Positions 19,301 through 44,000 of a DNA stretch of 64,000 bases are shown piece after piece. Both the position numbers and the translations under genes were made by a program. The notes beneath the pieces were generated by a model, which was not told the DNA's origin, ran no database searches, and was given only the letters and a program-made list of their open reading frames with translations. The stretch comes from Laetmonice hystrix. Its lineage: Eukaryota. Where the stretch lies: the NCBI GenBank assembly GCA_965235115.1, contig OZ249436.1, positions 5,334,001 to 5,398,000 of the forward strand, read 5' to 3'. The stretch's first letter is position 1; each line of letters begins with the position of its first letter.

Positions 19301-22300
19301 CCTCCCACAATGCTTGGCCCCACAGTGTAATGTTTGGCCTCACTGTACTCTTTGGCCTCACTGTAGTGTTCGCCTGGGTGCTAGGCCACCCAGTATACCT
19401 TGTAGCGATTCCTCCCTCTACTGTTTGGCCTTCCTGTACCGTTTGCTTGTATACAAGAGTAGCCAGTAGTATAGGGACGCCTCATGTTTCATGTTTCCAT
19501 GCTTTTATTGTCCAGGAGGCAGGCCATACGTTTCGTTTATCATCTTCTCCAATCTAATCTGTGTGCCCTACAGACCATCGGTAAGCGTCCGACAACGTTG
19601 TCAGGTCGTCGCAATGACTGTTTGCCGTAAAGGTTTTGTTAACAATGGCAAATGACGTTGTACGCCTTTTCTCTATCATTGGGGATACCGATCCTATCCC
19701 CAAGTAACAAACAAACAAAGATTACACATCTAGAGATGCTGCAGGCAGAAAACACCAGGGTGCAGCTCAGCTGACTGCACTGCCGCCTTCTGGCCAGCGG
19801 TGGAATCACCACGTACACCTGGCCGGGCTGGCAGGCACCTGTGGGTCTGAGGCGAGAGACAGGTTAAAGCAATGATAAGCGCAAAATGGCTACATTTTTG
19901 ATACGTCAATTTGAAACTACGCCCCCCAAAATTATGATTCTTCGGCCACATGTAGAACTGTCAAACGTATAGGTCTCGTACGTTCGCTACAGATATATGG
20001 TTGTGATGTGTACACTTCCCATTTGAGTATCTTCTCCAGATTTTAACATTAGAATGTCGTCGCCTGTACCTTTCATTTCTAGCTACCTCACTGTAGTGTT
20101 TGCATGACTGCTATAGGCCAGCCGGTAAAATGTTGGGACTTCTCACTCTACTGGTTGGCTTCCCACAATGCTTGGCCCCACAGTGTAATGTTTGGCCTCA
20201 CTGTACACTTTGGCCTCACTGTAGTGGTAGCTTGGGTGCTAGGCCACCCAGTATACCTTGTAGCGATTCCTCCCTCTACTGTTTGGCCTTCCTGTACCGT
20301 TTGCTTGTATACAAGAGTAGCCAGTAGTATAGGGACGCCTCATGTTTCATGTTTCCATGCCTTTATTGTCCAGGAGGCAGGCCATACGTTTCGTTTATCA
20401 TCTACTCCAATCTAATCTGTGTGCCCTACAGACCATCGGTAAGCGTCCGACAACGTTGTCAGGTCGTACCAATGACTGTTTGCCGTAAATGTTTTGTTAA
20501 CAATGGCAAATGACGTTGTACGCCTTTTCTATATCAGATATCCTATCCCCTAGTAACAAACAAACAAAGATGACACATCTAGAGATGATGCAGGCAGAAA
20601 ACACCAGGGTGCAGCTCAGATGACTGCACTGCCGCCTTCCGGCCAGCGGTGGAATCACCACGTACACCTGGCCGGGCTGGCAGGCACCTGTGGTAAAAGC
20701 CGGTAAAATGTTGGGACTTCTCACTCTACTGGTTGGCCTCCCACAATGCTTGGCCCCACAGTGTAATGTTTGGCCTCACTGTACACTTTGGCCTCACTGT
20801 AGTGTTAGCTTGGGTGGTAGGCCACCCAGTATACCTTGTAGCGATTCCTCCCTCTACTGTTTGGCCTTCCGGTACCGTTTGCTTGTATACAAGTGTAGCC
20901 AGTAGTATAGGGACGCCTCATGTTTCATGTTTCCATGCCTTTATTGTCCAGGAGGCAGGCCATACGTTTCGGTTATCATCTACTCCAATCTAATCTGTGT
21001 CCCCTACAGACCATCAGTAAGCGTCCGACAACGTTGTCAGGTCGTCGCAATGACTGTTTGCCGTAAAGGTTTTGTTAACAGTGGCAAATGACGTTGTACG
21101 CCTTTTCTATATCAGATATCCTATCCCCAAGTAACAAACAAACAAAGATTACACATCTAGAGATGCTGCAGGCAGAAAACACCAGGGTGCAGCTCAGCTG
21201 ACTGCACTGCCGCCTTCCGGCCAGCGGTGGAATCACCACGTACACCTGTCCGGGCTGGCAGGCACCTGTGGGTCTGAGGCGAGAGACAGGTTAAAGCAAT
21301 GATAAGCGCAAAATGGCTACATTTTTGATACGTCAAATTGAAACTACGCGCTCCAAAATCATGATTCTTAGGCCAGATGTAGAACTGTCAAACGTATAGG
21401 TCTCGTACGTTCGCTACAGATATATGGTTGTGATGTGTACCCTTCCCATTGGAGTACCTTCTCCAGATTTTAACATTAGAATGTCCTCGCCTGTACCTTT
21501 CATTTCCAGCTACCTCACTGTAGTGTTTGCATGGCTGCTATAGGCCAGCCGGTAAAATGTTGGGACTTCTCACTCTACTGGTTGGCCTCCCACAATGCTT
21601 GGCCCCACAGTGTAATGTTTGGCCTCACTGTACACTTTGGCCTCACTGTAGTGTTAGCTTGGGTGCTAGGCCACCCAGTATACCTTGTAGCGATTCCTCC
21701 CTCTACTGTTTGGCCTTCCTGTACCGTTTGCTTGTATACAAGTGTAGCCAGTAGTATAGGGACGCCTCATGTTTTATGTTTCCATGCCTTTATTGTCCAG
21801 GAGGCAGGCCATACGTTTCGTTTTTCATCTACTCCAATCTAATCTGTGTCCCCTACAGACCATCGGTAAGCGTCCGACAACGTTGTCAGGTCGTCGCAAT
21901 GACTGTTTGCCGTAAATGTTTTGTTAACAATGGCAAATGACGTTGTACGCCTTTTCTCTATCATTGGGGATACCGATCCTATCCCCAAGTAACAAACAAA
22001 CAAAGATTACACATCTAGAGATGCTGCAGGCAGAAAACACCAGGGTGCAGCTCAGCTGACTGCACTGCCGCCTTCTGGCCAGCGGTGGAATCACCACGTA
22101 CACCTGGCCGGGCTGGCAGGCACCTGTGGGTCTGAGGCGAGAGACAGGTTAAAGCAATGATAAGCGCAAAATGGCTACATTTTTGATACGTCAATTTGAA
22201 ACTACGCCCCCCAAAATTATGATTCTTCGGCCACATGTAGAACTGTCAAACGTATAGGTCTCGTACGTTCGCTACAGATATATGGTTGTGATGTGTACAC

Positions 22301-25300
22301 TTCCCATTTGAGTATCTTCTCCAGATTTTAACATTAGAATGTCGTCGCCTGTACCTTTCATTTCCAGCTACCTCACTGTAGTGTTTGCATGACTGCTATA
22401 GGCCAGCCGGTAAAATGTTGGGACTTCTCACTCTACTGGTTGGCCTCCCACAATGCTTGGCCCCACAGTGTAATGTTTGGCCTCACTGTACACTTTGGCC
22501 TCACTGTAGTGTTAGCTTGGGTGGTAGGCCACCCACTATACCTTGTAGCGATTCCTCCCTCTACTGTTTGGCCTTCCGGTACCGTTTGCTTGTATACAAG
22601 TGTAGCCAGTAGTATAGGGACGCCTCATGTTTCATGTTTCCATGCCTTTATTGTCCAGGAGGCAGGCCATACGTTTCGGTTATCATCTACTCCAATCTAA
22701 TCTGTGTCCCCTACAGACCATCAGTAAGCGTCCGACAACGTTGTCAGGTCGTCGCAATGACTGTTTGCCGTAAAGGTTTTGTTAACAGTGGCAAATGACG
22801 TTGTACGCCTTTTCTATATCAGATATCCTATCCCCAAGTAACAAACAAACAAAGATTACACATCTAGAGATGCTGCAGGCAGAAAACACCAGGGTGTAGC
22901 TCAGCTGACTGCACTGCCGCCTTCCGGCCAGCGGTGGAATCACCACGTACACCTGTCCGGGCTGGCAGGCACCTGTGGGTCTGAGGCGAGAGACAGGTTA
23001 AAGCAATGATAAGCGCAAAATGGCTACATTTTTGATACGTCAAATTGAAACTACGCGCTCCAAAATCATGATTCTTAGGCCAGATGTAGAACTGTCAAAC
23101 GTATAGGTCTCGTACGTTCGCTACAGATATATGGTTGTGATGTGTACCCTTCCCATTGGAGTACCTTCTCCAGATTTTAACATTAGAATGTCCTCGCCTG
23201 TACCTTTCATTTCCAGCTACCTCACTGTAGTGTTTGCATGGCTGCTATAGGCCAGCCGGTAAAATGTTGGGACTTCTCACTCTACTGGTTGGCCTCCCAC
23301 AATGCTTGGCCCCACAGTGTAATGTTTGGCCTCACTGTACACTTTGGCCTCACTGTAGTGTTAGCTTGGGTGCTAGGCCACCCAGTATACCTTGTAGCGA
23401 TTCCTCCCTCTACTGTTTGGCCTTCCTGTACCGTTTGCTTGTATACAAGTGTAGCCAGTAGTATAGGGACGCCTCATGTTTTATGTTTCCATGCCTTTAT
23501 TGTCCAGGAGGCAGGCCATACGTTTCGTTTATCATCTACTCCAATCTAATCTGAGTCCCCTACAGACCATCGGTAAGCGTCCGACAACGTTGTCAGGTCG
23601 TCGCAATGACTGTTTGCCGTAAAGGTTTTGTTAACAATGGCAAATGACGTTGTACGCCTTTTCTCTATCATTGGGGATACCGATCCTATCCCCAAGTAAC
23701 AAACAAACAAAGATTACACATCTAGAGATGCTGCAGGCAGAAAACACCAGGGTGCAGCTCAGCTGACTGCACTGCCGCCTTCTGGCCAGCGGTGGAATCA
23801 CCACGTACACCTGGCCGGGCTGGCAGGCACCTGTGGGTCTGAGGCGAGAGACAGGTTAAAGCAATGATAAGCGCAAAATGGCTACATTTTTGATACGTCA
23901 ATTTGAAACTACGCCCCCCAAAATTATGATTCTTCGGCCACATGTAGAACTGTCAAACGTATAGGTCTCGTACGTTCGCTACAGATATATGGTTGTGATG
24001 TGTACACTTCCCATTTGAGTATCTTCTCCAGATTTTAACATTAGAATGTCGTCGCCTGTACCTTTCATTTCTAGCTACCTCACTGTAGTGTTTGCATGAC
24101 TGCTATAGGCCAGCCGGTAAAATGTTGGGACTTCTCACTCTACTGGTTGGCTTCCCACAATGCTTGGCCCCACAGTGTAATGTTTGGCCTCACTGTACAC
24201 TTTGGCCTCACTGTAGTGGTAGCTTGGGTGCTAGGCCACCCAGTATACCTTGTAGCGATTCCTCCCTCTACTGTTTGGCCTTCCTGTACCGTTTGCTTGT
24301 ATACAAGAGTAGCCAGTAGTATAGGGACGCCTCATGTTTCATGTTTCCATGCCTTTATTGTCCAGGAGGCAGGCCATACGTTTCGTTTATCATCTACTCC
24401 AATCTAATCTGTGTGCCCTACAGACCATCGGTAAGCGTCCGACAACGTTGTCAGGTCGTACCAATGACTGTTTGCCGTAAATGTTTTGTTAACAATGGCA
24501 AATGACGTTGTACGCCTTTTCTATATCAGATATCCTATCCCCTAGTAACAAACAAACAAAGATGACACATCTAGAGATGATGCAGGCAGAAAACACCAGG
24601 GTGCAGCTCAGATGACTGCACTGCCGCCTTCCGGCCAGCGGTGGAATCACCACGTACACCTGGCCGGGCTGGCAGGCACCTGTGGTAAAAGCCGGTAAAA
24701 TGTTGGGACTTCTCACTCTACTGGTTGGCCTCCCACAATGCTTGGCCCCACAGTGTAATGTTTGGCCTCACTGTACACTTTGGCCTCACTGTAGTGTTAG
24801 CTTGGGTGGTAGGCCACCCAGTATACCTTGTAGCGATTCCTCCCTCTACTGTTTGGCCTTCCGGTACCGTTTGCTTGTATACAAGTGTAGCCAGTAGTAT
24901 AGGGACGCCTCATGTTTCATGTTTCCATGCCTTTATTGTCCAGGAGGCAGGCCATACGTTTCGGTTATCATCTACTCCAATCTAATCTGTGTCCCCTACA
25001 GACCATCAGTAAGCGTCCGACAACGTTGTCAGGTCGTCGCAATGACTGTTTGCCGTAAAGGTTTTGTTAACAGTGGCAAATGACGTTGTACGCCTTTTCT
25101 ATATCAGATATCCTATCCCCAAGTAACAAACAAACAAAGATTACACATCTAGAGATGCTGCAGGCAGAAAACACCAGGGTGCAGCTCAGCTGACTGCACT
25201 GCCGCCTTCCGGCCAGCGGTGGAATCACCACGTACACCTGTCCGGGCTGGCAGGCACCTGTGGGTCTGAGGCGAGAGACAGGTTAAAGCAATGATAAGCG

Positions 25301-28300
25301 CAAAATGGCTACATTTTTGATACGTCAAATTGAAACTACGCGCTCCAAAATCATGATTCTTAGGCCAGATGTAGAACTGTCAAACGTATAGGTCTCGTAC
25401 GTTCGCTACAGATATATGGTTGTGATGTGTACCCTTCCCATTGGAGTACCTTCTCCAGATTTTAACATTAGAATGTCCTCGCCTGTACCTTTCATTTCCA
25501 GCTACCTCACTGTAGTGTTTGCATGGCTGCTATAGGCCAGCCGGTAAAATGTTGGGACTTCTCACTCTACTGGTTGGCCTCCCACAATGCTTGGCCCCAC
25601 AGTGTAATGTTTGGCCTCACTGTACACTTTGGCCTCACTGTAGTGTTAGCTTGGGTGCTAGGCCACCCAGTATACCTTGTAGCGATTCCTCCCTCTACTG
25701 TTTGGCCTTCCTGTACCGTTTGCTTGTATACAAGTGTAGCCAGTAGTATAGGGACGCCTCATGTTTTATGTTTCCATGCCTTTATTGTCCAGGAGGCAGG
25801 CCATACGTTTCGTTTTTCATCTACTCCAATCTAATCTGTGTCCCCTACAGACCATCGGTAAGCGTCCGACAACGTTGTCAGGTCGTCGCAATGACTGTTT
25901 GCCGTAAATGTTTTGTTAACAATGGCAAATGACGTTGTACGCCTTTTCTCTATCATTGGGGATACCGATCCTATCCCCAAGTAACAAACAAACAAAGATT
26001 ACACATCTAGAGATGCTGCAGGCAGAAAACACCAGGGTGCAGCTCAGCTGACTGCACTGCCGCCTTCTGGCCAGCGGTGGAATCACCACGTACACCTGGC
26101 CGGGCTGGCAGGCACCTGTGGGTCTGAGGCGAGAGACAGGTTAAAGCAATGATAAGCGCAAAATGGCTACATTTTTGATACGTCAATTTGAAACTACGCC
26201 CCCCAAAATTATGATTCTTCGGCCACATGTAGAACTGTCAAACGTATAGGTCTCGTACGTTCGCTACAGATATATGGTTGTGATGTGTACACTTCCCATT
26301 TGAGTATCTTCTCCAGATTTTAACATTAGAATGTCGTCGCCTGTACCTTTCATTTCCAGCTACCTCACTGTAGTGTTTGCATGACTGCTATAGGCCAGCC
26401 GGTAAAATGTTGGGACTTCTCACTCTACTGGTTGGCCTCCCACAATGCTTGGCCCCACAGTGTAATGTTTGGCCTCACTGTACACTTTGGCCTCACTGTA
26501 GTGTTAGCTTGGGTGGTAGGCCACCCACTATACCTTGTAGCGATTCCTCCCTCTACTGTTTGGCCTTCCGGTACCGTTTGCTTGTATACAAGTGTAGCCA
26601 GTAGTATAGGGACGCCTCATGTTTCATGTTTCCATGCCTTTATTGTCCAGGAGGCAGGCCATACGTTTCGGTTATCATCTACTCCAATCTAATCTGTGTC
26701 CCCTACAGACCATCAGTAAGCGTCCGACAACGTTGTCAGGTCGTCGCAATGACTGTTTGCCGTAAAGGTTTTGTTAACAGTGGCAAATGACGTTGTACGC
26801 CTTTTCTATATCAGATATCCTATCCCCAAGTAACAAACAAACAAAGATTACACATCTAGAGATGCTGCAGGCAGAAAACACCAGGGTGTAGCTCAGCTGA
26901 CTGCACTGCCGCCTTCCGGCCAGCGGTGGAATCACCACGTACACCTGTCCGGGCTGGCAGGCACCTGTGGGTCTGAGGCGAGAGACAGGTTAAAGCAATG
27001 ATAAGCGCAAAATGGCTACATTTTTGATACGTCAAATTGAAACTACGCGCTCCAAAATCATGATTCTTAGGCCAGATGTAGAACTGTCAAACGTATAGGT
27101 CTCGTACGTTCGCTACAGATATATGGTTGTGATGTGTACCCTTCCCATTGGAGTACCTTCTCCAGATTTTAACATTAGAATGTCCTCGCCTGTACCTTTC
27201 ATTTCCAGCTACCTCACTGTAGTGTTTGCATGGCTGCTATAGGCCAGCCGGTAAAATGTTGGGACTTCTCACTCTACTGGTTGGCCTCCCACAATGCTTG
27301 GCCCCACAGTGTAATGTTTGGCCTCACTGTACACTTTGGCCTCACTGTAGTGTTAGCTTGGGTGCTAGGCCACCCAGTATACCTTGTAGCGATTCCTCCC
27401 TCTACTGTTTGGCCTTCCTGTACCGTTTGCTTGTATACAAGTGTAGCCAGTAGTATAGGGACGCCTCATGTTTTATGTTTCCATGCCTTTATTGTCCAGG
27501 AGGCAGGCCATACGTTTCGTTTATCATCTACTCCAATCTAATCTGAGTCCCCTACAGACCATCGGTAAGCGTCCGACAACGTTGTCAGGTCGTCGCAATG
27601 ACTGTTTGCCGTAAATGTTTTGTTAACAATGGCAAATGACGTTGTACGCCTTTTCTCTATCATTAAGGATACCGATCCTATCCCCAAGTAACAAACAAAC
27701 AAAGATTACACATCTAGAGATGCTGCAGGCAGGAAACACCAGGGTGCAGCTCAGCTGACTGCACTGCCGCCTTCTGGCCAGCGGTGGAATCACCACGTAC
27801 ACCTGGCCGGGCTGGCAGGCACCTGTGGGTCTGAGGCGAGAGACAGGTTAAAGCAATGATAAGCGCAAATGGCTACATTTTTGATACGTCAATTTGAAAC
27901 TACGCCCCCCAAAATTATGATTCTTCGGCCAGATGTAGAACTGTCAAACGTATAGGTCTCGTACGTTCGCTACAGATATATGGTTGTGATGTGTACACTT
28001 CCCATTTGAGTATCTTCTCCAGATTTTAACATTAGAATGTCGTCGCCTGTACCTTTCATTTCCAGCTACCTCACTGTAGTGTTTGCATGACTGCTATAGG
28101 CCAGCCGGTAAAATGTTGGGACTTCTCACTCTACTGGTTGGCCTCCCACAATGCTTGGCCCCACAGTGTAATGTTTGGCCTCACTGTACACTTTGGCCTC
28201 ACTGTAGTGTTAGCTTGGGTGCTAGGCCACCCACTATACCTTGTAGCGATTCCTCCCTCTACTGTTTGGCCTTCCGGTACCGTTTGCTTGTATACAAGTG

Positions 28301-28553
28301 TAGCCAGTAGTATAGGGACGCCTCATGTTTCATGTTTCCATGCCTTTATTGTCCAGGAGGCAGGCCATACGTTTCGGTTATCATCTACTCCAATCTAATC
28401 TGTGTCCCCTACAGACCATCGGTAAGCGTCCGACAACGTTGTCAGGTCGTCCCAATGACTGTTTGCCGTAAAGGTTTTGTTAACAATGGCAAATGACGTT
28501 GTACGCCTTTTCTATATCAGATATCCTATCCCCAAGTAACAAACAAACAAAGA
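16308..28553. repeat. ~850-bp macrosatellite, block 1 (15 monomers of 849/858/578 bp; 1707-bp dimer and 3992-bp higher-order repeat)
   Basis: Equivalent positions at 17001, 17850, 18708, 19557, 20415, 20993, 21842, 22700, 23549, 24407, 24985, 25834, 26692, 27541, 28398. Confidence 0.97.
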
Positions 28554-29243
28554 CTAGATACGTTGTGGAGTACCACAATGGATCCCATCCCCGGGGTGTC
28601 CCATGTAACATGTTCTGAATAGGGATAACTATGGTACTATCTTGCACCCGTGACGACTTATGAGCCTTAGAAGATGGAAGTTACGTCATTATGACCTTAT
28701 GCTACGTCATAAATATTGATCTCAATGGACTTCCTATTCATGTTCAAAAATAACTATAGGTGTATCTAGCACCGTTTACTAGTTACAGGCTTCTACCAAT
28801 CCTTAGAAGGGCTCAGTTACGTCATAAGGATGTAATAGATCACACAACAGAATAAATCTTGGTGTCAATTGAAAGAACATAATGAGGACTTCCTGTTTAT
28901 AAATATTCAATACTAACTATGGGTCTAACTCCTACCATTTACAAGTTAAAACCCTGAGAAAATATCGATGACATCGTTATGTCATGGGTCACGTGACCTA
29001 AGAAATAATGATGCCAAACGAAAGAGTATACATGACTTCCTATTCGTGTTCAATAGTAACTATGGGTCTAACTTCAAGCATTAACAAGTTATATCCCTTA
29101 GAAAATATCGATGACATCTTTACGACGTCACAGGTGACGTGACCTTAAGGATGACGATACCAAGTGATAGCAAGTTATAGCCCTCACAAAATATAGGTTC
29201 ACTGGCTGTGGTAATCAGTACTAGTTCAATCCAGTATTAGCTT

Positions 29244-29322
29244 GTCAGATGGCGTAGCACTGGCGATAAGTGTCTTGACTCACATGCTATGGGTCGCCGG
29301 TTCAATCCCAGGCCGAGTCACC
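29244..29322 (+). pseudogene. tRNA-like relic / SINE head inside the outer HINE
   Basis: A-box-like TGGCGTAGCACTGG, B-box GGTTCAATCCC, then a T run. The 3' part GTTCAATCCCAGGCCGAGTCAC is duplicated at ~29356. Confidence 0.5.
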
Positions 29323-30239
29323 TATTTTTTTGGACTTCTACCGGAAGGGTCCCGCGTTCAATCCCAGGCCGAGTCACGTTTCTTTTTGTTTTTGTTTTTT
29401 CCCTCTAATTTTTAAAAATGGTCACGTGACCTGAAAAAAAAAATATCATAAAAGAGCATAATGACTTCTTATCTGTGTTTAATAGTAACCAATGCCAAAT
29501 CTGGCACCGTTTACAAGTTCTAGAAAATTGACAATTTTTCGAAATTTCAAAGTCACGTGATTCAGCGAATATTAGTCAAATCGCTTATCTTTTGATGATT
29601 TGAGACAAGCTCATGTTAGAGAGTCCTTCTGCCTAATATTGTCGAATTTCACCAAAAAATGAAGAAGGAGTAGCGATTTAAGAGATTTGTGACTGAGGAC
29701 CCAGTTCTCCTAAAGTTCAAGGTCAAATGACAAATGAAGGGTCCATGTTAGACTAGACCATTGCCTGATTAAAACACCATGATGGGGTTTGGAAATTTCC
29801 AATATGAACGTCATGACGTGACGTCATACGTCACGTCACGTGATATGTCACAACTCATTGTCTGACGAGTCCTTGTCATGGTCAAGATGTGTGCCAAATT
29901 TGATTGAGATATCTTGAAAACTGACTGAGATGGACGCCACTGTTTACTACTACTACTACTACTACTACGACGCAAAGAATAACTAGCCCGACTGATTGCT
30001 TAAGCAATACAGGGATCCCTTCCCCTGACGAGGAACAATGAAGCAATAATAAAAATAATAATGATAACGAGGCAATAGGTGTTGCTAGGCAACACCAGAT
30101 CCCATTTCCCATTTATGTACATGACGTGCACCTAGCCATGACGTGTACAACTACGTGACGTGTACCTAGCCATGACGTGTACCTAGCCAAAACCAGACAT
30201 GGCGATTAGTATGGCTATAACAATGGCACAACAGGCATT

Positions 30240-31730
30240 GGTGTATTATGACGTCATTATGACGTTATACGTCACACGACGTCATAAGTCTTGGTGGCAA
30301 CTGAAAGAGCATCTATGAGTTCCTATTCGGGTTCAATAGTAACTATGATCGTATCTAGCACCGTTTAGGAGTTACAGGCCTCTGAAAATCCTTAGAAAAT
30401 GGCTATGACGTCATTATGACGTCATACGTGATGATAGGTCAAAAAGGTTGGTGGCATTCGAAAGAGCATATATGACTTCCTATTCATGTTCAATATTAAC
30501 CATGGCTCTATCTTACACCGTTTCAGAGTTACCGCCATTTGTTTCTCAAAAATGGCTATGACCCAATTTCGATGTCACATGGTATGCTAAAAATAGTGCA
30601 CAGCCCTTAGTCTGATCCCGGGGATCTGGGAAATCCCATGGAGATTCCCTGGTATAAATTTGGGCTCGATTTGTCAAAAATTGTTGGAGTTCAGGCGAAT
30701 TAGTAACATTTTGAGCTGTGACCTAGATTTCAAGAAGGTCAAAGGTCAGAGGTCAAATTGATGAATAAAATTATTCCCTCTCAAGTGGCAAGCTAAGTGC
30801 TATGAATGAATTTTCTCTGATCATGGGACTGGTAAAATGAGGCACAATGAGGTACTTCCCAAAACACCAAATTACGTCATGACGTCACGTCATATGACGT
30901 AAATCTTGGTGTCATTTGAAAGAGCATCTATGAGATCCTATTCGTGTTCAATAGTACCTATGACCCTATCTAGCACAGTTTAAGAGTTATAGGCCTCTGA
31001 AAATGCCAATGACGTCATTATGACGTTATACGTCACATGACGTCATAAATCCTGGTGTCAATTGAAAGAGCATATATGACTTCCTATTCATGTTCAATAG
31101 TAACCATGGCTCTATCTTAAACGGTTTCAGAGTTACAGCCATTTGTTTCTCAAAAATGGCTATGACCCAATTTCGATGTCACGTACGTGGTATGCTAAAA
31201 ATAGGGCACAACACCTAGTCTGATCCCGGGCCTCTGGGGAATCCTATGGAGATTCCCTGGTATCAATTTGGGCTCGATTTGTCAAAAATTGTGAGAGGAG
31301 TATCGAAATAGTCACATTTTGACCTGTAACCTAGATCTCAAGAAGGTCAAGGGTCAGAGGTCAAATTGATAAATAAAATGATTCCCCCTCGAGAGGCAAG
31401 CTGGGTGCTATGAATGAATTTTCTCTAACTGATCATGGGACTGGTACAATGTGGTACAATGAGGTACTTGCCAAAGCATCAAATAACGTCATGACGTCAG
31501 GTCATATGACGTAAATGTTAGTAACTGAAAATCCTTAGAAAATGTGAATGACGTCACTATGACGTCATAGTTTATACGTCACGATAGGTAAAAATGTTGG
31601 TGTCAATTGCAAGAGTATTTAAGACTTACTATTCATGTTGAGTAGTAACCATGGCTCTATAATACCGTTTCAGAGTTACAGTCATTTGTTTCTCAAAAAT
31701 GGCTATGACCCAAATTCAATGTCACATGCC
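30240..31730. repeat. ~600-bp internal tandem repeat (about 2.5 copies) of the inner HINE, built from TGACGTCA-rich subunits
   Basis: GTTTCTCAAAAATGGCTATGACCCAA at 30541, ~31146 and ~31688. Shares GAAAGAGCATATATGACTTCCTATT with the 146-bp repeat. Confidence 0.8.
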
Positions 31731-32299
31731 ATTTCTCTTGTTTCAAAGTTTAGCACCTGGTCGCACCCCCCCCCCCCCCCCCCCGGCAATATCCCGGGTC
31801 ATGGGCTGCCACATATCGCCATGTGGGAGGAAGGGGGTCCCCGATAAAATATAATATTTAGCCGACATATTGATATGTGACCATCCCTGGCCCAGATATT
31901 CTCCATCCAATACAATACAATATGTTTATTCACAACCTCGATGGAGGCAAAGGAACAGGGTCAGGGATTGTATCTTATAGTAGCACTGCTCACTCCATTT
32001 GCCACCGCCAGGGCCCAGCCCCCTAGCGTGAGGACAGTGTATAGTTGAGACGTGCTGCTACCTGGTGTCAAACTTCGCCCCCCCCCCCCCCCCCCCCCAC
32101 GGTTGATTGTGTGCTAACAAGATGGGTTTTTGATTTCTTACTCTAGCCATTTCCTTAGCCAAAACGCAGCCATACTTTTTAAAACGTTACACACAAGAAG
32201 CTATAAATGTTTAATCTATACATCGACTTTCAAAGCAAAAGTCTACATTAAATATTTACAAAGACAGGCAGCAGTAGCAATTCAAAGCCATGCATTAAG

Positions 32300-33522
32300 T
32301 AGCTTGGTTCCCGCCTCCCGTGTAGGTGGCGCTAGGCGCGCACGGTAGGCTAGGCACAAAGGTTGACGTCATCGCTCGTCCGGAAGTAAACAAAAGCACG
32401 TGGACTGGTGGAGTCGATCGAGCGGTACCGATCTAGCTGTTGGAATCACGCCAGAAATGGCAAGTTTTTGTTGGAGTGGTAGGCCTAGGCTATATGGCCC
32501 GTAATAATTTGATTTTACATCTCATATCACCTATGGCTATATTACAGCTCCCACCATCTCTCCTCGTCCCCCACTACCTGAACGCTTCCGAGTCCTTGTA
32601 CCACTACGGCCAGTGCTGGTTACCTGCCTGGCATCACGTCACTTACGCCCGCCGCGAATGATCCCGGGAGGCCGCCGAGCCTGCCCGGGGTGAGCGAGGG
32701 AGCGGCGGCCAGTGGCTCGCTTACTCGCTCAAACTGCCGCCGGCCCGCCGGCCGCTCGCTCGCTCGCTGCCGGGGCTTGTAGTGGGCCTCGGCCGGTCCG
32801 TTCGGCCGGGACTTGTATAGGGGGCCTCGCCCTCGGCCAGTCGGTTCGGCTAGGGCTTGTTGATCTAGGCGGATCTAGGATTTTTAAACAATTGCCGAGA
32901 ATTGGACTATATAATTGGCTGACCTATACCAACCAGCACCAGGGCGCCGCTACCGTCTGCTTTGACGGGACCCTTGGCCTTGCTGGGTCGGCGGGCTCAG
33001 TCAAATCGCGTCGGGCTCATACGCCGTGTATTCGTTCCGAACATTAAAACGGTCGCTGTCATGAGACGAAATGCGACATATTGCTCATATTTGTACCACA
33101 TCATGAGGTACATCCCCTTTGTGATTTACCAAGTTTTCAGCCATATGTCGCGATCCAGTAAAATTTTAGAGGAATTCAAACATGAAACGAACCCATCAGA
33201 CTACCCCTCAATCGACCTATTATCGCCCAATGGGGGTCACCCGATACTTCGCGTTTTCTTTACAATTCCTCCCATTAACTCACAAACTTTGATCTTAAGG
33301 TTGAATCGGTGAAGTGTATAAACATTTTAACAACGTTCTAACAGTTAATTATAAATAATAAACTGTTAGTGCTACTTATTTTCTCTTTTTTTCCGCGCAC
33401 ACGATCGCCTTTTCTGCCCGCACAGGCTCACGTGGTTTGTTTACATCTGAGCGCAAAGGATTGTGGGTGATGACGTAAACCTTTGTGCAAGACCTACACC
33501 AGTAGGTCGCGGAACAAGGCTA
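32300..33522. mobile_element. Non-autonomous DNA transposon with 9-bp TSD and long imperfect TIRs (MULE-like), nested in the inner HINE
   Basis: TSD TGCATTAAG at 32291-32299 and 33523-33531. Ends TAGCTTGGTTCC / GGAACAAGGCTA. Subterminal inverted match GCACAAAGGTT(G/T)ACGTCATC. Confidence 0.75.
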
Positions 33523-35029
33523 TGCATTAAGCAGAAAGTCATAGCTCTTCAGAAAAGTATATGCTTGATGTGCGACAGGTCTGGCGTTCGATTCCCCATC
33601 AAGTCATTTGCTGTTTTCGTTTTGATGTTGTTTTTCGACTGAATTTGAAAAATATTATGTTTCTCCCCTTTACAATTGCCAGTCATTCGGCTACAGATAA
33701 TTTACAGCTATATTTCACGTTTAATGACGAAATATACAGCATACACCACTCACTCTCTGCAGTGTGGACTTACTATGGAGAACGCCATTGGATTTAACTG
33801 AGTTTTGTTAGTAAATAGCTTCGGTCTTCACATGGCGAGTTCCATTCCGAGACTTGGAATCTCCTCTTCAAAGTTGCCTGACATTGAGCTAAATATCTAC
33901 TTGAAGTACTCCCCATAGTTTTAGGCAGAAATATTAGATACTTATTAATACAGAGGGCGATAGGCTCAGCGTCCACAGTCGGCCCATCACGCGGACACCA
34001 AGCGAGGCCCCGACATCACTCACGAAACCAGGTTTCTAGGTCACTCGATCAGTGGTCAAATTGCCTGTCTCTCTTCACGACCTTCTCTTATATAATTGAT
34101 CTCCGTATTGTTAATTATATATTTTGCCAATTGAAATTTATATTATCTTAAAGTAGACAGTTTAAAGTCCACACCGTGTAAATATTAAAACGCTGAGCTT
34201 ATTGTCCTGTAGTTGAGACGTGCCCCAAATTAAGAAAGAGATGACGTTGTAGATGACGTTGTAGATGACGTCACAAGTCACGTGGCACAAAAAATATGGT
34301 ACCTAATTAAAGTAGACATAAAACTTTCTAAGGTTCATTAAGAATTATGGCTCTGTCTCAAATCATTCAAGAGTTACAGCACAGAATCTTCGAAATGACC
34401 TAAGTCAAGCCCAAGTTCAAAACTTTCAGGTCACGTGGTTCAGCGAAAATAGGTCAAATCGCTTATCCACCGAGGAATCTGTTGGAGCTGTCCCTAGAGA
34501 GTGCCTCTGCGAAATATTGTCAAGATTTATCCAAAAATGGGGAAGAAGTAATGATTTAACCGATTTACGAGCTAGGGACCAGGTCTCTCTAAGTTCAAAG
34601 GTCAAAGGTCAAATGAAGGGTCAGACTTATGCAGCACCCTTGCCCGACTAAAATGCCATGACGGATTTTCGAAATTCCCAAGATGAGGTTCAAAAATGAG
34701 CTTTAATGTACACAACACGTTTCACGTCATGACGTCATGACGTGACGTTACGTGACGTCATGACGCACCATGAGATCAGAGTTTGTCATCGTGAAGACGT
34801 AGCCCAAGTTTCATTGAGATATCTTGAAAAATGACTGAGATATACGTATAGGTTTACGACTACTACGACTACGACTACTACTACTACTACTACTACTACA
34901 GGCATAAAAATAAGGAAGACGAAACCAGACAATTTCAAGATCCCTTCCCCTATCGGGGGAAGGGATAATAATAGGGAAGACGAAACCGTACAATCTGAAG
35001 ATCCCATCCCCCTGTAGGGGATGGGATAA

Positions 35030-38000
35030 TTACACATCTAGAGATGCTGCAGGCAGAAAACACCAGGGTGCAGCTCAGCTGACTGCACTGCCGCCTTCCG
35101 GCCAGTGGTGGAATCACCACGTACACCTGTACGGGCTGGCAGGCACCTGTGGGTCTGAGGCGAGAGACAGGTTAAAGCAATGATAAGCGCAAAATGGCTA
35201 CATTTTTGATACGTCAAATTGAAACTACGCGCCCCAAAATCATGATTCTTAGGCCAGATGTAGAACTGTCAAACGTATAGGTCTCGTACGTTCGCTACAG
35301 ATGTATGGTTGTGATGTGTACCCTTCCCATTTGAGTACCTTCTCCAGATTTTAACATTAGAATGTCCTCGCCTGTACCTTTCATTTCCAGCTACCTCACT
35401 GTAGTGTTTGCATGGCTGCTATAGGCCAGCCGGTAAAATGTTGGGACTTCTCACTCTACTGGTTGGCCTCCCACAATGCTTGGCCCCACAGTGTAATGTT
35501 TGGCCTCACTGTACTCTTTGGCCTCACTGTAGTGTTCGCCTGGGTGCTAGGCCACCCAGTATACCTTGTAGCGATTCCTCCCTCTACTGTTTGGCCTTCC
35601 TGTACCGTTTGCTTGTATACAAGAGTAGCCAGTAGTATAGGGACGCCTCATGTTTCATGTTTCCGTGCCTTTATTGTCCAGGAGGCAGGCCATACGTTTC
35701 GTTTATCATCTTCTCCAATCTAATCTGTGTGCCCTACAGACCATCGGTAAGCGTCCGACAACGTTGTCAGGTCGTCGCAATGACTGTTTGCCGTAAAGGT
35801 TTTGTTAACAATGGCAAATGACGTTGTACGCCTTTTCTCTATCATTGGGGATACCGATCCTATCCCCAAGTAACAAACAAACAAAGATTACACATCTAGA
35901 GATGCTGCAGGCAGAAAACACCAGGGTGCAGCTCAGCTGACTGCACTGCCGCCTTCTGGCCAGCGGTGGAATCACCACGTACACCTGGCCGGGCTGGCAG
36001 GCACCTGTGGATCTGAGGCGAGAGACAGGTTAAAGCAATGATAAGCGCAAAATTGCTAAATTTTTGATACGTCAATTTGAAACTACGCCCCCCAAAATTA
36101 TGATTCTTCGGCCACATGTAGAACTGTCAAGTGTATAGGTCTCGTACGTTCGCTACAGATATATGGTTGTGATGTGTACACTTCCCATTTGAGTATCTTC
36201 TCCAGATTTTAACATTAGAATGTCGTCGCCTGTACCTTTCATTTCTAGCTACCTCACTGTAGTGTTTGCATGACTGCTATAGGCCAGCCGGTAAAATGTT
36301 GGGACTTCTCACTCTACTGGTTGGCTTCCCACAATGCTTGGCCCCACAGTGTAATGTTTGGCCTCACTGTACACTTTGGCCTCACTGTAGTGTTAGCTTG
36401 GGTGCTAGGCCACCCAGTATACCTTGTAGCGATTCCTCCCTCTACTGTTTGGCCTTCCTTTACCGTTTGCTTGTATACAAGTGTAGCCAGTAGTATAGGG
36501 ACGCCTCGTGTTTCATGTTTCCATGCCTTTATTGTCCAGGAGGCAGGCCATACGTTTCGGTTATCATCTACTCCAATCTAATCTGTGTCCCCTACAGACG
36601 ATCGGTAAGCGTCCGACAACGTTGTCAGGTCGTCCCAATGACTGTTTGCCGTAAAGGTTTTGTTAACAATGGCAAATGACGTTGTACGCCTTTTCTATAT
36701 CAGATATCCTATCCCCAAGTAACAAACAAAGACGACACATCTAGAGATGCTGTAGGCAGAAAACACCAGGGTGCAGCTCAGCTGACTGCACTGCCGCCTT
36801 CTGGCCAGCGGTGGAATCACCACGTACACCTGGCCGGGCTGGCAGGCACCTGTGGCTCTGAGGCGAGAGACAGGTTAAAGCAATGATAAGCGCAAAATGG
36901 CTACATTTTTGATACGTCAATTTGAAACTACGCGCCCCAAAATTATGATTCTTAGGCCAGATGTAGAACTGTCAAACGTATGGGTCTCGTACGTTCGCTA
37001 CACATATATAGTTGTGATGTGTACACTTCCCATTTGAGTATCTTCTCCAGATTTTAATATTAGAATGTCCTCGCCTGTACTTTTCATTTCCACTACCTCA
37101 CTGTAGTGTTTCGATGGCTGCTATAGGCCAGCCGGTAAAATGTTGGGACTTCTCACTCTACTGATTGGCCTCCCACAATGCTTGGCCCCACAGTGTAATG
37201 TTTGGCCTCACTGTACTCTTTGGCCTCACTGTAGTGTTCGCTTGGGTGCTAGGCCACCCAGTATACCTTGTAGCGATTCCTCCCTCTACTGTTTGGCCTT
37301 CCTGTACCGTTTGCTTGTATACAAGTGTAGCCAGTAGTATAGGGACGCCTCATGTTTTATGTTTCCATGCCTTTATTGTCCAGGAGGCAGGCCATACGTT
37401 TCGTTTATCATCTACTCCAATCTAATCTGAGTCCCCTACAGACCATCGGTAAGCGTCCGACAACGTTGTCAGGTCGTCGCAATGACTGTTTGCCGTAAAT
37501 GTTTTGTTAACAATGGCAAATGACGTTGTACGCCTTTTCTATATCAGATATCCTATCCCCAAGTAACAAACAAAGACGACACATCTAGAGATGCTGTAGG
37601 CAGAAAACACCAGGGTGCAGCTCAGCTGACTGCACTGCCGCCTTCTGGCCAGCGGTGGAATCACCACGTACACCTGGCCGGGCTGGCAGGCACCTGTGGC
37701 TCTGAGGCGAGAGACAGGTTAAAGCAATGATAAGCGCAAAATGGCTACATTTTTGATACGTCAATTTGAAACTACGCGCCCCAAAATTATGATTCTTAGG
37801 CCAGATGTAGAACTGTCAAACGTATGGGTCTCGTACGTTCGCTACACATATATAGTTGTGATGTGTACACTTCCCATTTGAGTATCTTCTCCAGATTTTA
37901 ATATTAGAATGTCCTCGCCTGTACTTTTCATTTCCACTACCTCACTGTAGTGTTTCGATGGCTGCTATAGGCCAGCCGGTAAAATGTTGGGACTTCTCAC

Positions 38001-41000
38001 TCTACTGATTGGCCTCCCACAATGCTTGGCCCCACAGTGTAATGTTTGGCCTCACTGTACTCTTTGGCCTCACTGTAGTGTTCGCTTGGGTGCTAGGCCA
38101 CCCAGTATACCTTGTAGCGATTCCTCCCTCTACTGTTTGGCCTTCCTGTACCGTTTGCTTGTATACAAGAGTAGCCAGTAGTATAGGGACGCCTCATGTT
38201 TCATGTTTCCATGCTTTTATTGTCCAGGAGGCAGGCCATACGTTTCGGTTATCATCTACTCCAATCTAATCTGTGTCCCCTACAGACCATCGGTAAGCGT
38301 CCGACAACGTTGTCAGGTCGTCCCAATGACTGTTTGCCGTAAATGTTTTGTTAACAATGGCAAATGACGTTGTACGCCTTTTCTATATCAGATAACCTAT
38401 CCCCTAGTAACAAACAAACAAAGATGACACATCTAGAGATGATGCAGGCAGAAAACACCAGGGTGCAGCTCAGATGACTGCACTGCCGCCTTCCGGCCAG
38501 CGGTGGAATCACCACGTACACCTGGCCGGGCTGGCAGGCACCTGTGGTAAAAGCCGGTAAAATGTTGGGACTTCTCACTCTACTGGTTGGCCTCCCACAA
38601 TGCTTGGCCCCACAGTGTAATGTTTGGCCTCACTGTACTCTCTGGCCTCACTGTAGTGTTCGCTTGGGTGCTAAGCCACCCAGTATACCTTGTAGCGATC
38701 CCTCCCTCTACTGTTTGGCCTTCCGGTACCGTTTGCTTGTATACAAGAGTAGCCAGTAGTATAGGGACGCCTCATGTTTCATGTTTCCATGCCTTTATTG
38801 TCCAGGAGGCAGGCCATACGTTTCGGTTATCATCTACTCCAATCTAATCTGTGTCCCCTACAGACCATCGGTAAGCGCCCGACAACGTTGTCAGGTCGTC
38901 CCAATGACTGTTTGCCGTAAAGGTTTTGTTAACAATGGCAAATGACGTTGTACGCCTTTTCTATATCAGATATCCTATCCCCAAGTAACAAACAAACAAA
39001 GATTACACATCTAGAGATGCTGCAGGCAGAAAACACCAGGGTGCAGCTCAGCTGACTGCACTGCCGCCTTCCGGCCAGTGGTGGAATCACCACGTACACC
39101 TGTACGGGCTGGCAGGCACCTGTGGGTCTGAGGCGAGAGACAGGTTAAAGCAATGATAAGCGCAAAATGGCTACATTTTTGATACGTCAAACTGAAACTA
39201 CGCGCCCCAAAATCATGATTCTTCGGCCAGATGTAGAACTGTCAAACGTATAGGTCTCGTACGTTCGCTACAGATATATGGTTGTGATGTGTACACTTCC
39301 CATTTGAGTACCTTCTCCAGATTTTAACATTAGAATGTCCTCGCCTGTACCTTTCATTTCCAGCTACCTCACTGTAGTGTTTGCATGGCTGCTATAGGCC
39401 AGCCGGTAAAATGTTGGGACTTCTCACTCTACTGGTTGGCCTCCCACAATCCTTGGCCCCACAGTGTAATGTTTGGCCTCACTGTACTCTTTGGCCTCAC
39501 TGTAGTGTTCGCCTGGGTGCTAGGCCACCCAGTATACCTTGTAGCGATTCCTCCCTCTACTGTTTGGCCTTCCTGTACCGTTTGCTTGTATACAAGAGTA
39601 GCCAGTAGTATAGGGACGCCTCATGTTTCATGTTTCCATGCCTTTATTGTCCAGGAGGGAGGCCATACGTTTCGTTTATCATCTTCTCCAATCTAATCTG
39701 TGTGCCCTACAGACCATCGGTAAGCGTCCGACAACGTTGTCAGGTCGTCGCAATGACTGTTTGCCGTAAAGGTTTTGTTAACAATGGCAAATGACGTTGT
39801 ACGCCTTTTCTCTATCATTGGGGATACCGATCCTATCCCCAAGTAACAAACAAACAAAGATTACACATCTAGAGATGCTGCAGGCAGAAAACACCAGGGT
39901 GCAGCTCAGCTGACTGCACTGCCGCCTTCTGGCCAGCGGTGGAATCACCACGTACACCTGGCCGGGCTGGCAGGCACCTGTGGATCTGAGGCGAGAGACA
40001 GGTTAAAGCAATGATAAGCGCAAAATTGCTAAATTTTTGATACGTCAATTTGAAACTACGCCCCCCAAAATTATGATTCTTCGGCCACATGTAGAACTGT
40101 CAAGTGTATAGGTCTCGTACGTTCGCTACAGATATATGGTTGTGATGTGTACACTTCCCATTTGAGTATCTTCTCTAGATTTTAACATTAGAATGTCGTC
40201 GCCTGTACCTTTCATTTCTAGCTACCTCACTGTAGTGTTTGCATGACTGCTATAGGCCAGCCGGTAAAATGTTGGGACTTCTCACTCTACTGGTTGGCTT
40301 CCCACAATGCTTGGCCCCACAGTGTAATGTTTGGCCTCACTGTACACTTTGGCCTCACTGTAGTGTTAGCTTGGGTGCTAGGCCACCCAGTATACCTTGT
40401 AGCGATTCCTCCCTCTACTGTTTGGCCTTCCTTTACCGTTTGCTTGTATACAAGTGTAGCCAGTAGTATAGGGACGCCTCATGTTTCATGTTTCCATGCC
40501 TTTATTGTCCAGGAGGCAGGCCATACGTTTCGGTTATCATCTACTCCAATCTAATCTGTGTCCCCTACAGACGATCGGTAAGCGTCCGACAACGTTGTCA
40601 GGTCGTCCCAATGACTGTTTGCCGTAAAGGTTTTGTTAACAATGGCAAATGACGTTGTACGCCTTTTCTATATCAGATATCCTATCCCCAAGTAACAAAC
40701 AAAGACGACACATCTAGAGATGCTGTAGGCAGAAAACACCAGGGTGCAGCTCAGCTGACTGCACTGCCGCCTTCTGGCCAGCGGTGAAATCACCACGTAC
40801 ACCTGGCCGGGCTGGCAGGCACCTGTCGCTCTGAGGCGAGAGACAGGTTAAAGCAATGATAAGCGCAAAATGGCTACATTTTTGATACGTCAATTTGAAA
40901 CTACGCGCCCCAAAATTATGATTCTTAGGCCAGATGTAGAACTGTCAAACGTATGGGTCTCGTACGTTCGCTACACATATATAGTTGTGATGTGTACACT

Positions 41001-44000
41001 TCCCATTTGAGTATCTTCTCCAGATTTTAATATTAGAATGTCCTCGCCTGTACTTTTCATTTCCACTACCTCACTGTAGTGTTTCGATGGCTGCTATAGG
41101 CCAGCCGGTAAAATGTTGGGACTTCTCACTCTACTGATTGGCCTCCCACAATGCTTGGCCCCACAGTGTAATGTTTGGCCTCACTGTACTCTTTGGCCTC
41201 ACTGTAGTGTTCGCTTGGGTGCTAGGCCACCCAGTATACCTTGTAGCGATTCCTCCCTCTACTGTTTGGCCTTCCTGTACCGTTTGCTTGTATACAAGAG
41301 TAGCCAGTAGTATAGGGACGCCTCATGTTTCATGTTTCCATGCTTTTATTTTCCAGGAGGCAGGCCATACGTTTCGGTTATCATCTACTCCAATCTAATC
41401 TGTGTCCCCTACAGACCATCGGTAAGCGTCCGACAACGTTGTCAGGTCGTCCCAATGACTGTTTGCCGTAAATGTTTTGTTAACAATGGCAAATGACGTT
41501 GTACGCCTTTTCTATATCAGATAACCTATCCCCTAGTAACAAACAAACAAAGATGACACATCTAGAGATGATGCAGGCAGAAAACACCAGGGTGCAGCTC
41601 AGATGACTGCACTGCCGCCTTCCGGCCAGCGGTGGAATCACCACGTACACCTGGCCGGGCTGGCAGGCACCTGTGGTAAAAGCCGGTAAAATGTTGGGAC
41701 TTCTCACTCTACTGGTTGGCCTCCCACAATGCTTGGCCCCACAGTGTAATGTTTGGCCTCACTGTACTCTCTGGCCTCACTGTAGTGTTCGCTTGGGTGC
41801 TAAGCCACCCAGTATACCTTGTAGCGATCCCTCCCTCTACTGTTTGGCCTTCCGGTACCGTTTGCTTGTATACAAGAGTAGCCAGTAGTATAGGGACGCC
41901 TCATGTTTCATGTTTCCATGCCTTTATTGTCCAGGAGGCAGGCCATACGTTTCGGTTATCATCTACTCCAATCTAATCTGTGTCCCCTACAGACCATCGG
42001 TAAGCGCCCGACAACGTTGTCAGGTCGTCCCAATGACTGTTTGCCGTAAAGGTTTTGTTAACAATGGCAAATGACGTTGTACGCCTTTTCTATATCAGAT
42101 ATCCTATCCCCAAGTAACAAACAAACAAAGATTACACATCTAGAGATGCTGCAGGCAGAAAACACCAGGGTGCAGCTCAGCTGACTGCACTGCCGCCTTC
42201 CGGCCAGTGGTGGAATCACCACGTACACCTGTACGGGCTGGCAGGCACCTGTGGGTCTGAGGCGAGAGACAGGTTAAAGCAATGATAAGCGCAAAATGGC
42301 TACATTTTTGATACGTCAAACTGAAACTACGCGCCCCAAAATCATGATTCTTCGGCCAGATGTAGAACTGTCAAACGTATAGGTCTCGTACGTTCGCTAC
42401 AGATATATGGTTGTGATGTGTACACTTCCCATTTGAGTACCTTCTCCAGATTTTAACATTAGAATGTCCTCGCCTGTACCTTTCATTTCCAGCTACCTCA
42501 CTGTAGTGTTTGCATGGCTGCTATAGGCCAGCCGGTAAAATGTTGGGACTTCTCACTCTACTGGTTGGCCTCCCACAATCCTTGGCCCCACAGTGTAATG
42601 TTTGGCCTCACTGTACTCTTTGGCCTCACTGTAGTGTTCGCCTGGGTGCTAGGCCACCCAGTATACCTTGTAGCGATTCCTCCCTCTACTGTTTGGCCTT
42701 CCTGTACCGTTTGCTTGTATACAAGAGTAGCCAGTAGTATAGGGACGCCTCATGTTTCATGTTTCCATGCCTTTATTGTCCAGGAGGGAGGCCATACGTT
42801 TCGGTTATCATCTACTCCTATCTAATCTGTGTCCCCTACAGACTATCGGTAAGCGTCCGACAACGTTGTCAGGTCGTCGCAATGACTGTTTGCCATAAAG
42901 GTTTTGTTAACAATGGCAAATGACGTTGTACGCCTTTTCTCTATCATTGGGGATACCGATCCTATCCCCAAGTAACAAACAAACAAAGATTACACATCTA
43001 GAGATGCTGCAGGCAGAAAACATCAGGGTGCAGCTCAGCTGACTGCACTGCCGCCTTCTGGCCAGCGGTGGAATCACCACGTACACCTGGCCGGGCTGGC
43101 AGGCACCTGTGGGTCTGAGGCGAGAGACAGGTTAAAGCAATGATAAGCGCAAAATGGCTACATTTTTGATACGTCAATTTGAAACTACGCCCCCCAAAAT
43201 TATGATTCTTCGGCCACATGTAGAACTGTCAAGTGTATAGGTCTCGTACGTTCGCTACAGATATATGGTTGTGATGTGTACACTTCCCATTTGAGTATCT
43301 TCTCCAGATTTTAACATTAGAATGTCGTCGCCTGTACCTTTCATTTCCAGCTACCTCACTGTAGTGTTTGCATGACTGCTATAGGCCAGCCGGTAAAATG
43401 TTGGGACTTCTCACTCTACTGGTTGGCCTCCCACAATGCTTGGCCCCACAGTGTAATGTTTGGCCTCACTGTACACTTTGGCCTCACTGTAGTGTTAGCT
43501 TGGGTGCTAGGCCACCCACTATACCTTGTAGCGATTCCTCCCTCTACTGTTTGGCCTTCCGGTACCGTTTGCTTGTATACAAGTGTAGCCAGTAGTATAG
43601 GGACGCCTCATGTTTCATGTTTCCATGCCTTTATTGTCCAGGAGGCAGGCCATACGTTTCGGTTATCATCTACTCCAATCTAATCTGTGTCCCCTACAGA
43701 CGATCGGTAAGCGTCCGACAACGTTGTCAGGTCGTCCCAATGACTGTTTGCCGTAAAGGTTTTGTTAACAATGGCAAATGACGTTGTACGCCTTTTCTAT
43801 ATCAGATATCCTATCCCCAAGTAACAAACAAAGACGACACATCTAGAGATGCTGTAGGCAGAAAACACCAGGGTGCAGCTCAGCTGACTGCACTGCCGCC
43901 TTCTGGCCAGCGGTGAAATCACCACGTACACCTGGCCGGGCGGGCAGGCACCTGTCGCTCTGAGGCGAGAGACAGGTTAAAGCAATGATAAGCGCAAAAT

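What the first reader, a model, noticed from the sequence alone, without database searches (positions are those of the whole stretch)
28520..35029. Target sites mimic the element's own end geometry around the sub-TIR motif
Seen (minus strand): the element's 5' cut lies 18-19 nt before GGGGA(T/A)GGGAT, and the satellite target lies 20 nt before a near-identical GGGGATAGGAT. Edge monomers (~45510, ~47174) and the inverted relic (~48344) carry the exact ATCCCATCCCC. The 3' CTAG ends lie 28 nt (outer) and 32 nt (inner) after the sub-TIR. The site where inner elements inserted in the outer 5' end is exactly 32 nt after its GGGGATGGGAT. Inference: the HUH Rep binds the sub-TIR motif and nicks at end-like distances, so its own ends and motif-bearing satellites become preferred targets. 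That would be a protein-guided targeting rule for a eukaryotic rolling-circle transposon.
Basis: inference. Interest (0 to 1): 0.8.

Follow-up and report, generated by a model that had tools for sequence, protein, structure and literature searches.

The report
Rolling-circle transposon hot spot in satellite
A family of rolling-circle jumping elements lands far more often than its local sequence taste explains beside a short motif that its own ends share with a satellite repeat, hinting that the transposase is drawn to copies of that end motif, though not at a fixed distance.

Summary
The element is a non-autonomous Helitron2/Helentron-type (HINE) composite. Genome-wide the hot spot is real. 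Of the first 100 listed copies of the outer family, 15 sit in the 850-bp satellite, all on the motif strand: 14 lie 7-25 nt before the motif, 1 lies 32 nt after it, and none lies elsewhere in the monomer. Another 21 sit at end regions of relatives. The satellite insertions are independent, come from several families, and exceed a local-sequence model at least about 20-fold. The fixed-ruler claim fails. Spacers at 49 loci run 7-25 with mode 24, and none is 18-19. Nesting falls at +29 to +41 in 3-nt steps of a (TTA)n tract. About 63 of 100 targets have no motif. Families matching the motif at only 8-9 of 11 bases use the same site. Best reading: loose tethering near the motif plus local choice of a T-rich site (inferred; no transposase found or tested). 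Self-insertion is known; a base-precise motif-linked satellite hot spot was not found in my searches.

The parts
34969..35029 (-). 5' 61 nt of outer non-autonomous HLE2/HINE element (family O): TT start, sub-TIR, 5-nt loop, inverted repeat (35001-35011), then (TTA)n target tract
   Evidence: 229 exact 5' ends genome-wide
29983..34968 (-). Inner nested HINE (family I), inserted in the outer (TTA)n 32 nt after the outer 5' motif; own 5' hairpin 34940-34966, (GTA)n 34855-34899, 3' sub-TIR 30015-30025, CTAG end at 29983
   Evidence: 28 of 30 top-scoring I 3' ends are followed by (TTA)n/body or 5' end of a relative, judged by eye
28554..29982 (-). Body and 3' end of outer element O: (GTA)n, internal sequence, 3' sub-TIR 28582-28592, 3' hairpin 28563-28578, CTAG end at 28554
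   Evidence: 245 exact 3' ends genome-wide
28534..28553 (-). T-rich tract of the satellite monomer, downstream half of the target site
   Evidence: empty sites in neighbouring monomers
28523..28533 (-). Sub-TIR-like motif of the satellite monomer (one-mismatch variant in this array)
35030..47790 (-). Satellite array of ~850-bp monomers (satellite M), upstream of the element; 35030-35040 is the upstream half of the target
   Evidence: at least 7,800 empty sites genome-wide
16308..28553 (-). Satellite M array downstream of the element
16247..16307 (-). 5' end of a second O copy at the same monomer position; a different inner element starts at 16246, again 32 nt after the motif. The nearest O 3' end downstream is outside the window at G000:C1:5322114, before a different monomer type
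48170..48570 (+). Inverted, diverged relative of satellite M (about 79% identical over 222 nt) that keeps the exact motif at 48344-48354; boundaries approximate

Best explanation
These are non-autonomous Helitron2/Helentron-type elements moved in trans by a RepHel transposase (inferred). Most copies integrate at the family's short local consensus TNA^TT (shown). About a third integrate within about 40 nt of a same-strand GGGGATGGGAT-like motif, either in satellite M or in the end regions of related elements (shown for M; for relatives partly inferred). The likeliest cause is loose tethering: the integration complex is attracted to copies of the purine-rich end motif shared by these families, then cuts at the nearest usable T-rich site on that strand, on either side, at no fixed distance (inferred). 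Insertion into the (TTA)n just behind a relative's 5' hairpin, followed by transposition from the outermost 5' end to the first 3' end, builds the stacked 5' ends and nested composites (structures shown; cycle as proposed in PMC5148889).
For: 15 of the first 100 listed O 3' ends are in M, all on the motif strand and within -25..+32 of the motif, none elsewhere in 850 bp. A local-sequence model puts at most about a third of M's insertion odds there; P about 6e-7 for 13 events. Expected O copies in the tract are 0.2-1.2 of 245, against 28 loci seen (about 22 after allowing for likely duplicates). All-family 5' junctions: 27 in the tract window, 2 in the +29 window (one event), 0 in a matched control window of M, although the tract anchor matched only 7 monomers in held loci against 17 and 18 for the other two anchors. 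Local consensus is relaxed at M: +2 base is C in 17 of the 18 M sites (spacers of 10 or more only) versus 1 of 61 unique sites. T-richness alone is insufficient: about 0.9 T-rich A^T sites per kb of background, yet only 2 of 61 unique targets are that T-rich. Insertions are independent: filled monomers are 0.2-5% from their own array neighbours (9 of 10 loci testable) and mostly 5-9% from each other, while the elements differ by 0.5-1.3%. Precedent for an HUH protein integrating near genomic copies of its own end motif: AAV Rep (PMC2900306, passages).
Against: The motif-linked targets are only two sequence contexts (satellite M and the elements themselves), so the motif is confounded with everything else at those sites. 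No insertion was seen beside a motif in any other context, though power is low. No degenerate motif in 61 unique 3' flanks (mean best match 5.3 of 11, shuffles 5.4; GGGAT core in 0 of 61). 14 of 49 satellite loci come from families whose sub-TIR matches at only 8 or 9 of 11 bases. 4 of the 15 M targets have a one-mismatch motif. The two hot spots lie mainly on opposite sides of the motif. The (TTA)n is already the best-scoring local site in O (14% of O's odds). No head-to-head insertions beside the palindromic 5' hairpin (0 of 24). No transposase gene was identified. Background (64 kb) and M copy number (7,800 counted; 25,000 extrapolated from a non-random sample) are rough.
Confidence: 0.5

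Rival explanations
1. The sites are hot for a motif-independent reason: a pyrimidine-rich microsatellite beside a G-run that unwinds easily, a host protein or transcription complex that exposes that strand, or chromatin at that monomer position. The shared 11-mer is coincidence or a relic of common ancestry.
For: Both hot spots are T-rich microsatellite tracts. The cut follows the tract start whatever the tract length (20, 24, 25). Families with different sub-TIRs use the same site. HUH enzymes cut single strands and Helraiser prefers AT-rich DNA 3' of the cut (PMC4778049, passages). HINEs prefer T-rich DNA (PMC4067079; PMC7492417).
Against: Similar tracts away from the motif are common in background sequence (0.08-0.7 per kb by four definitions) yet account for at most 2 of 61 unique targets. 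The only satellite insertions outside the tract fall at +29 and +32 after the motif, and the control window has none.
Confidence: 0.3
2. DNA-guided targeting: the element's 5' sub-TIR, held as single strand by the transposase, anneals to the complementary motif on the target strand, as it may do with its own 3' sub-TIR, and the nearby T-rich site is attacked.
For: The motif is always on the cut strand and is the complement of the element's 5' end (12 bases for family O; sequence). No inverted insertions were seen.
Against: Families A and T would pair at only 8 and 9 of 11 positions yet give 14 of 49 satellite loci; 7 of 18 5' hairpins read at filled satellite sites are of these types. Their copy numbers were not counted, so per-family rates are unknown.
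Confidence: 0.12
3. One reading: Rep binds the motif and nicks at end-like fixed distances (about -18 to -20, and +28 to +32).
For: 7 of 49 satellite loci at 20; 34 of 65 stacked-end spacings in held loci are 32 (many are copies of one composite); two satellite events at +29 and +32.
Against: 0 of 49 at 18-19, mode 24, second cluster at 7-10. Nested spacings 29-47, mostly in steps of 3. Each family's own 3' spacing differs (28-33).
Confidence: 0.05
4. There is no targeting: one ancestral insertion was multiplied by satellite amplification, segmental duplication or transduction.
For: Some pairs are duplicates (C7 pair identical over 151 nt; C1:12112708 and C1:12132105). Composites move as units.
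Against: Ten different spacer lengths, several inserted families, many contigs. Both flanks are contiguous satellite in the four cases checked. Filled monomers resemble their local neighbours, not each other.
Confidence: 0.03

Closest known systems
HINE / DINE-1 non-autonomous Helentrons (PMC4067079; oyster Cg_HINE, PMC7492417; passages read)
   Same: 5' sub-TIR with adjacent inverted repeat, microsatellite, central tandem repeats, 3' sub-TIR plus hairpin, no target duplication, T-rich targets.
   Different: Those passages report only a TT / T-rich preference; no motif-linked hot spot. These elements end in CTAG(T).
Fusarium FoHeli1/2 Helitron2 (PMC5148889, passages)
   Same: Asymmetric TIRs and hairpins at both ends; target TNAT^T, equal to the TNA^TT found here in a shifted register; self-insertion proposed to give multiple short 5' termini.
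   Different: No recurrent base position or motif-linked targeting in the passages read; here stacks are deep and mix families, and an unrelated satellite is targeted.
Maize Helitrons with multiple termini (PMC3288121) and Xenopus HelenXT233 double LTS (PMC11417382); passages
   Same: Preference to insert near or inside other Helitrons; multiple 5' ends.
   Different: Regional preference only in those passages, not a site defined to within tens of bases.
Paramecium telomere-capping Helitrons (PMC13085455, passages)
   Same: Helitrons proposed to insert strand-specifically into a repeat.
   Different: Target is the telomeric repeat and is near-exclusive; here about two thirds of copies go elsewhere and the target shares a motif with the element's ends.
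AAV Rep integration near Rep-binding sites; TrwC integration at oriT (PMC2900306, PMC5714925; passages)
   Same: HUH protein favours genomic copies of the motif it binds in its own DNA; integration away from a fixed nick distance.
   Different: Viral and plasmid proteins, binding shown experimentally; AAV association acts over kilobases, here within about 40 nt.
Helraiser (Helitron1; PMC4778049, passages)
   Same: A^T insertion, AT-rich DNA 3' of the cut, CTAG end after a hairpin.
   Different: No sub-TIRs, 5' TC start, no local hopping or motif-linked sites reported in the passages.

Membership tests
HLE2 (Helitron2/Helentron), non-autonomous HINE | Asymmetric terminal inverted repeats of 11-17 nt, the 3' one subterminal | tested here: met
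   11-nt repeats at +3 of the 5' end and 28 or 32 nt before the 3' end; each family's ends co-vary
HLE2 (Helitron2/Helentron), non-autonomous HINE | 5' inverted repeat pairing with the 5' sub-TIR, followed by a microsatellite | tested here: met
   hairpin z = -5.1; (GTA)n at 34855-34899
HLE2 (Helitron2/Helentron), non-autonomous HINE | 3' stem-loop after the 3' sub-TIR | tested here: met
   6-bp stem in O and 5-bp in I in the centroid structures, though whole-segment z-scores are only -0.8 and -1.1
HLE2 (Helitron2/Helentron), non-autonomous HINE | No target-site duplication; T^T-type target | tested here: met
   filled versus empty monomers show no duplication; consensus TNA^TT (55 of 61 flanks start TT, 32 of 35 end in A), which reads as T^T if one T is given to the 3' end; register is ambiguous
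HLE2 (Helitron2/Helentron), non-autonomous HINE | Autonomous partner with HLE2-type RepHel (with or without endonuclease) and matching termini | not tested
HLE1 (canonical Helitron) | 5' TC start, no terminal inverted repeats | tested here: not met
   starts TT and has sub-TIRs; only the hairpin plus CTAG end is shared
HUH proteins that target genomic copies of their own binding motif (AAV Rep type) | Insertions enriched near the motif genome-wide | tested here: inconclusive
   strong in satellite M and relatives; absent in 61 unique targets; isolated motif copies not counted
HUH proteins that target genomic copies of their own binding motif (AAV Rep type) | Protein binds the motif and mutation abolishes targeting | not testable with these tools
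   needs biochemistry
   spacers 7-25 at 49 loci, none at 18-19; nested +29 to +41

The most novel reading that the evidence does not exclude
Helitron2/Helentron transposases have a second, end-seeking integration mode: they recognise the sub-TIR motif in target DNA (by protein binding or by annealing of the carried 5' end) and integrate within about 40 nt of it. This would explain nested and stacked-end elements across fungi, plants and animals as active targeting, make motif-bearing satellites sinks for these elements, and may mean satellite M itself descends from or is spread by the same machinery.
Probability: 0.45. Interest if true: 0.8.

Novelty: new variant of a known kind. Interest (0 to 1): 0.58.

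Why it matters
The role of sub-TIRs and the target choice of Helitron2/Helentron elements are untested: the papers read give only dinucleotide or T-rich preferences and explain multiple termini as chance nesting. This genome offers a young family (0.5-1.3% divergence, about 240 copies) with a measurable, strand-specific hot spot and a defined 60-bp target that can be mutated. If the motif drives it, a eukaryotic rolling-circle transposon would share the AAV-Rep logic of targeting its own binding motif, a possible handle for directing Helitron vectors and a link between these elements and satellite evolution.

Tried and rejected
Rfam on three monomers: 3 matches, none near a gathering score. 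No tRNA genes in the window. No RepHel-sized ORF. Satellite M as a tandem of elements whose termini lie at the hot spot: not supported; the few array edges seen lie elsewhere in the monomer, and only five extra loci were examined. Motif conservation in M: high (0.98) but ranked 19 of 250 11-mers in 14 segments, some selected for carrying it, so no evidence of special constraint. Degenerate-motif enrichment in unique targets: none. Insertion upstream of the elements' own 3' sub-TIRs: none among 28 matches, but uninformative since O has almost no usable site there. Sequencing runs: no RNA holder listed. Contigs of four other runs laid on one monomer showed the satellite in three other coded organisms and a marine metagenome but no element junction among the loose ends shown (9 not shown); this is no evidence on insertions. 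Earlier findings: three look-ups returned nothing. The Helraiser structure paper was not held. Not done: search for the autonomous partner, genome-wide count of isolated motifs, copy numbers of families A and T, filled-versus-empty comparison by motif variant.
Full report
The window is G000:C1:5334001-5398000 of a 627-Mb assembly in 35 contigs. On the minus strand, 35029-28554 is a composite: an outer 1.49-kb element (family O) with a 4.99-kb inner element (family I) inserted 61 nt from its 5' end, sitting in an array of about 850-bp monomers (satellite M). Both have HINE anatomy: 5' sub-TIR with an adjacent inverted repeat forming a hairpin, a (GTA)n microsatellite, a 3' sub-TIR, a small hairpin and CTAG. 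No coding partner lies in the window.

Census. Exact patterns give 245 O 3' ends and 229 O 5' ends. I classified the first 100 listed 3' ends (contigs C1 to early C5): 89 by reading flanks and 11 from the matches. Result: 15 in M, 21 at end regions of related elements (8 of these are one tandem array), 1 inside a relative, and 63 elsewhere. For modelling I dropped 2 of the 63 (one duplicate, one flank not starting with T), leaving 61. 'Elsewhere' means no match to O, I or M; other repeats were not excluded.

Ordinary targets. The 61 3' flanks and 35 5' flanks give the consensus TNA^TT with mild T-richness downstream. This equals the 'TNAT'^'T' target of Fusarium FoHeli1/2 in a shifted register (PMC5148889). 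These targets carry no trace of the motif.

Satellite hot spot. All 15 M insertions are on the motif strand; 14 are 7-25 nt before the motif and 1 is 32 nt after it. An all-family search gave 65 rows, 49 loci after removing 16 overlapping rows; I counted spacers by hand from coordinates: 7 x2, 8 x3, 9 x7, 10, 14 x2, 17, 20 x7, 22, 24 x21, 25 x4 (the pattern allowed up to 32). 26 of the 49 are O; 14 belong to two families whose sub-TIRs match at 8 and 9 of 11 bases (3' sub-TIR read at one locus each). Filled monomers are closer to their own array neighbours than to each other, while the elements are nearly identical, so the events are independent (one of ten loci lacked a neighbour, and two loci of one array are equally close to each other). 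M has at least 7,800 empty sites, perhaps 25,000 given the anchor's low match rate. The local model expects 0.2-1.2 of 245 O copies in the tract against 28 loci seen, and places most of M's odds elsewhere in the monomer. A control window chosen beforehand for similar model odds gave 0 junctions, the +29 window 2 (identical over 151 nt, one event), the tract 27. T-rich tracts without the motif are common in 64 kb of background but rarely hit.

Nesting. 24 O 5' ends have the motif 15-45 nt upstream: 12 directly after a relative's 3' end, 10 at +29 to +41 in a relative's 5' region, 2 in M; none head-to-head (its pattern is shorter than the one that counted 229). Held loci show stacks of up to six or more 5' ends from mixed families (output partly cut), spacings 29-47 with 34 of 65 at 32. 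28 of the 30 best-scoring I 3' ends are followed by a relative's (TTA)n/body or 5' end, in about a dozen host contexts judged by eye; many are passengers in composites. The (TTA)n is an array of perfect local targets and O's top-scoring site, so this hot spot is weaker evidence for the motif than M is.

Reading. Shown: two strand-specific hot spots within about 40 nt of the motif, one of them in a satellite and not explained by local sequence. Refuted: a fixed, end-like ruler and a general rule. Inferred: loose tethering to the motif followed by local choice of a T-rich site (0.5). The motif is confounded with its two contexts, mismatched families and one-mismatch targets are used, and the hot spots lie mostly on opposite sides, so a motif-independent cause stays open (0.3), as does annealing of the carried 5' end (0.12).

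Literature. I read passages only (keyword finds), no full texts or supplements, of PMC4067079, PMC5148889, PMC4778049, PMC13286980, PMC11417382, PMC3288121, PMC10288648, PMC13085455, PMC2900306, PMC7492417 and PMC5714925. Self-insertion, multiple 5' termini, insertion near other Helitrons and strand-specific insertion into telomeric repeats are in print. Nine searches showed no report of a sub-TIR-linked hot spot in a satellite; the library lacks most subscription papers, and unread supplements of the Fusarium, oyster and HELIANO papers could hold insertion-site data that bear on novelty. The family labels O, I, A, T and M are mine.

Verdict: observation confirmed, interpretation partly supported, a new variant of a known kind, interest 0.58.

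Noticed in passing
G000:C1:70577251-70602703 (L037-L045, L195): Nine O 3' ends at a 1,432-bp period, joined at the +61 nesting site, with two stacked O 5' ends about 14 kb upstream: a self-insertion appears to have seeded a tandem array of element bodies.
   Followed up: partly
window 1-16307 and G000:C1:5322114: The second O copy seems to enclose about 28 kb of nested material, including the whole left part of the window; the intervening 12 kb outside the window was not read.
   Followed up: partly
window 28494-28502 versus 28560-28566 (minus strand): Satellite M and the O 3' end share a 7-mer downstream of the motif at different offsets (+21 and +16); a weak hint that M's motif derives from an element end.
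   Followed up: no
window 35846-35867 and equivalent monomers: Alternate monomers of this array carry a 9-nt addition that turns the motif into a small inverted repeat; the array has a two-monomer higher-order repeat.
   Followed up: no
L095:560-1400: Satellite M is present in contigs of three other coded organisms and a marine metagenome, with no difference listed across the motif among the rows shown (45 rows not shown).
   Followed up: partly
window 14061-15644; 30259-31516: 146-bp central tandem repeat (11 copies) inside the second inner element, and a duplicated ~620-bp segment inside family I, as in oyster Cg_HINEs.
   Followed up: no
window 55334-58880: 49-bp minisatellite, about 72 copies, 96% identical; smaller tandem repeats at 59638-59889 and 63261-63561.
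   Followed up: no
L129 (G000:C3:7566025-7566084): One O copy lies directly before a tRNA-like sequence (resemblance by eye, not scanned).
   Followed up: no
L092:1-130 and L091:300-870 (minus-strand numbering): Other, unrelated elements inserted in or beside satellite M at positions away from the motif; useful as controls if counted.
   Followed up: no
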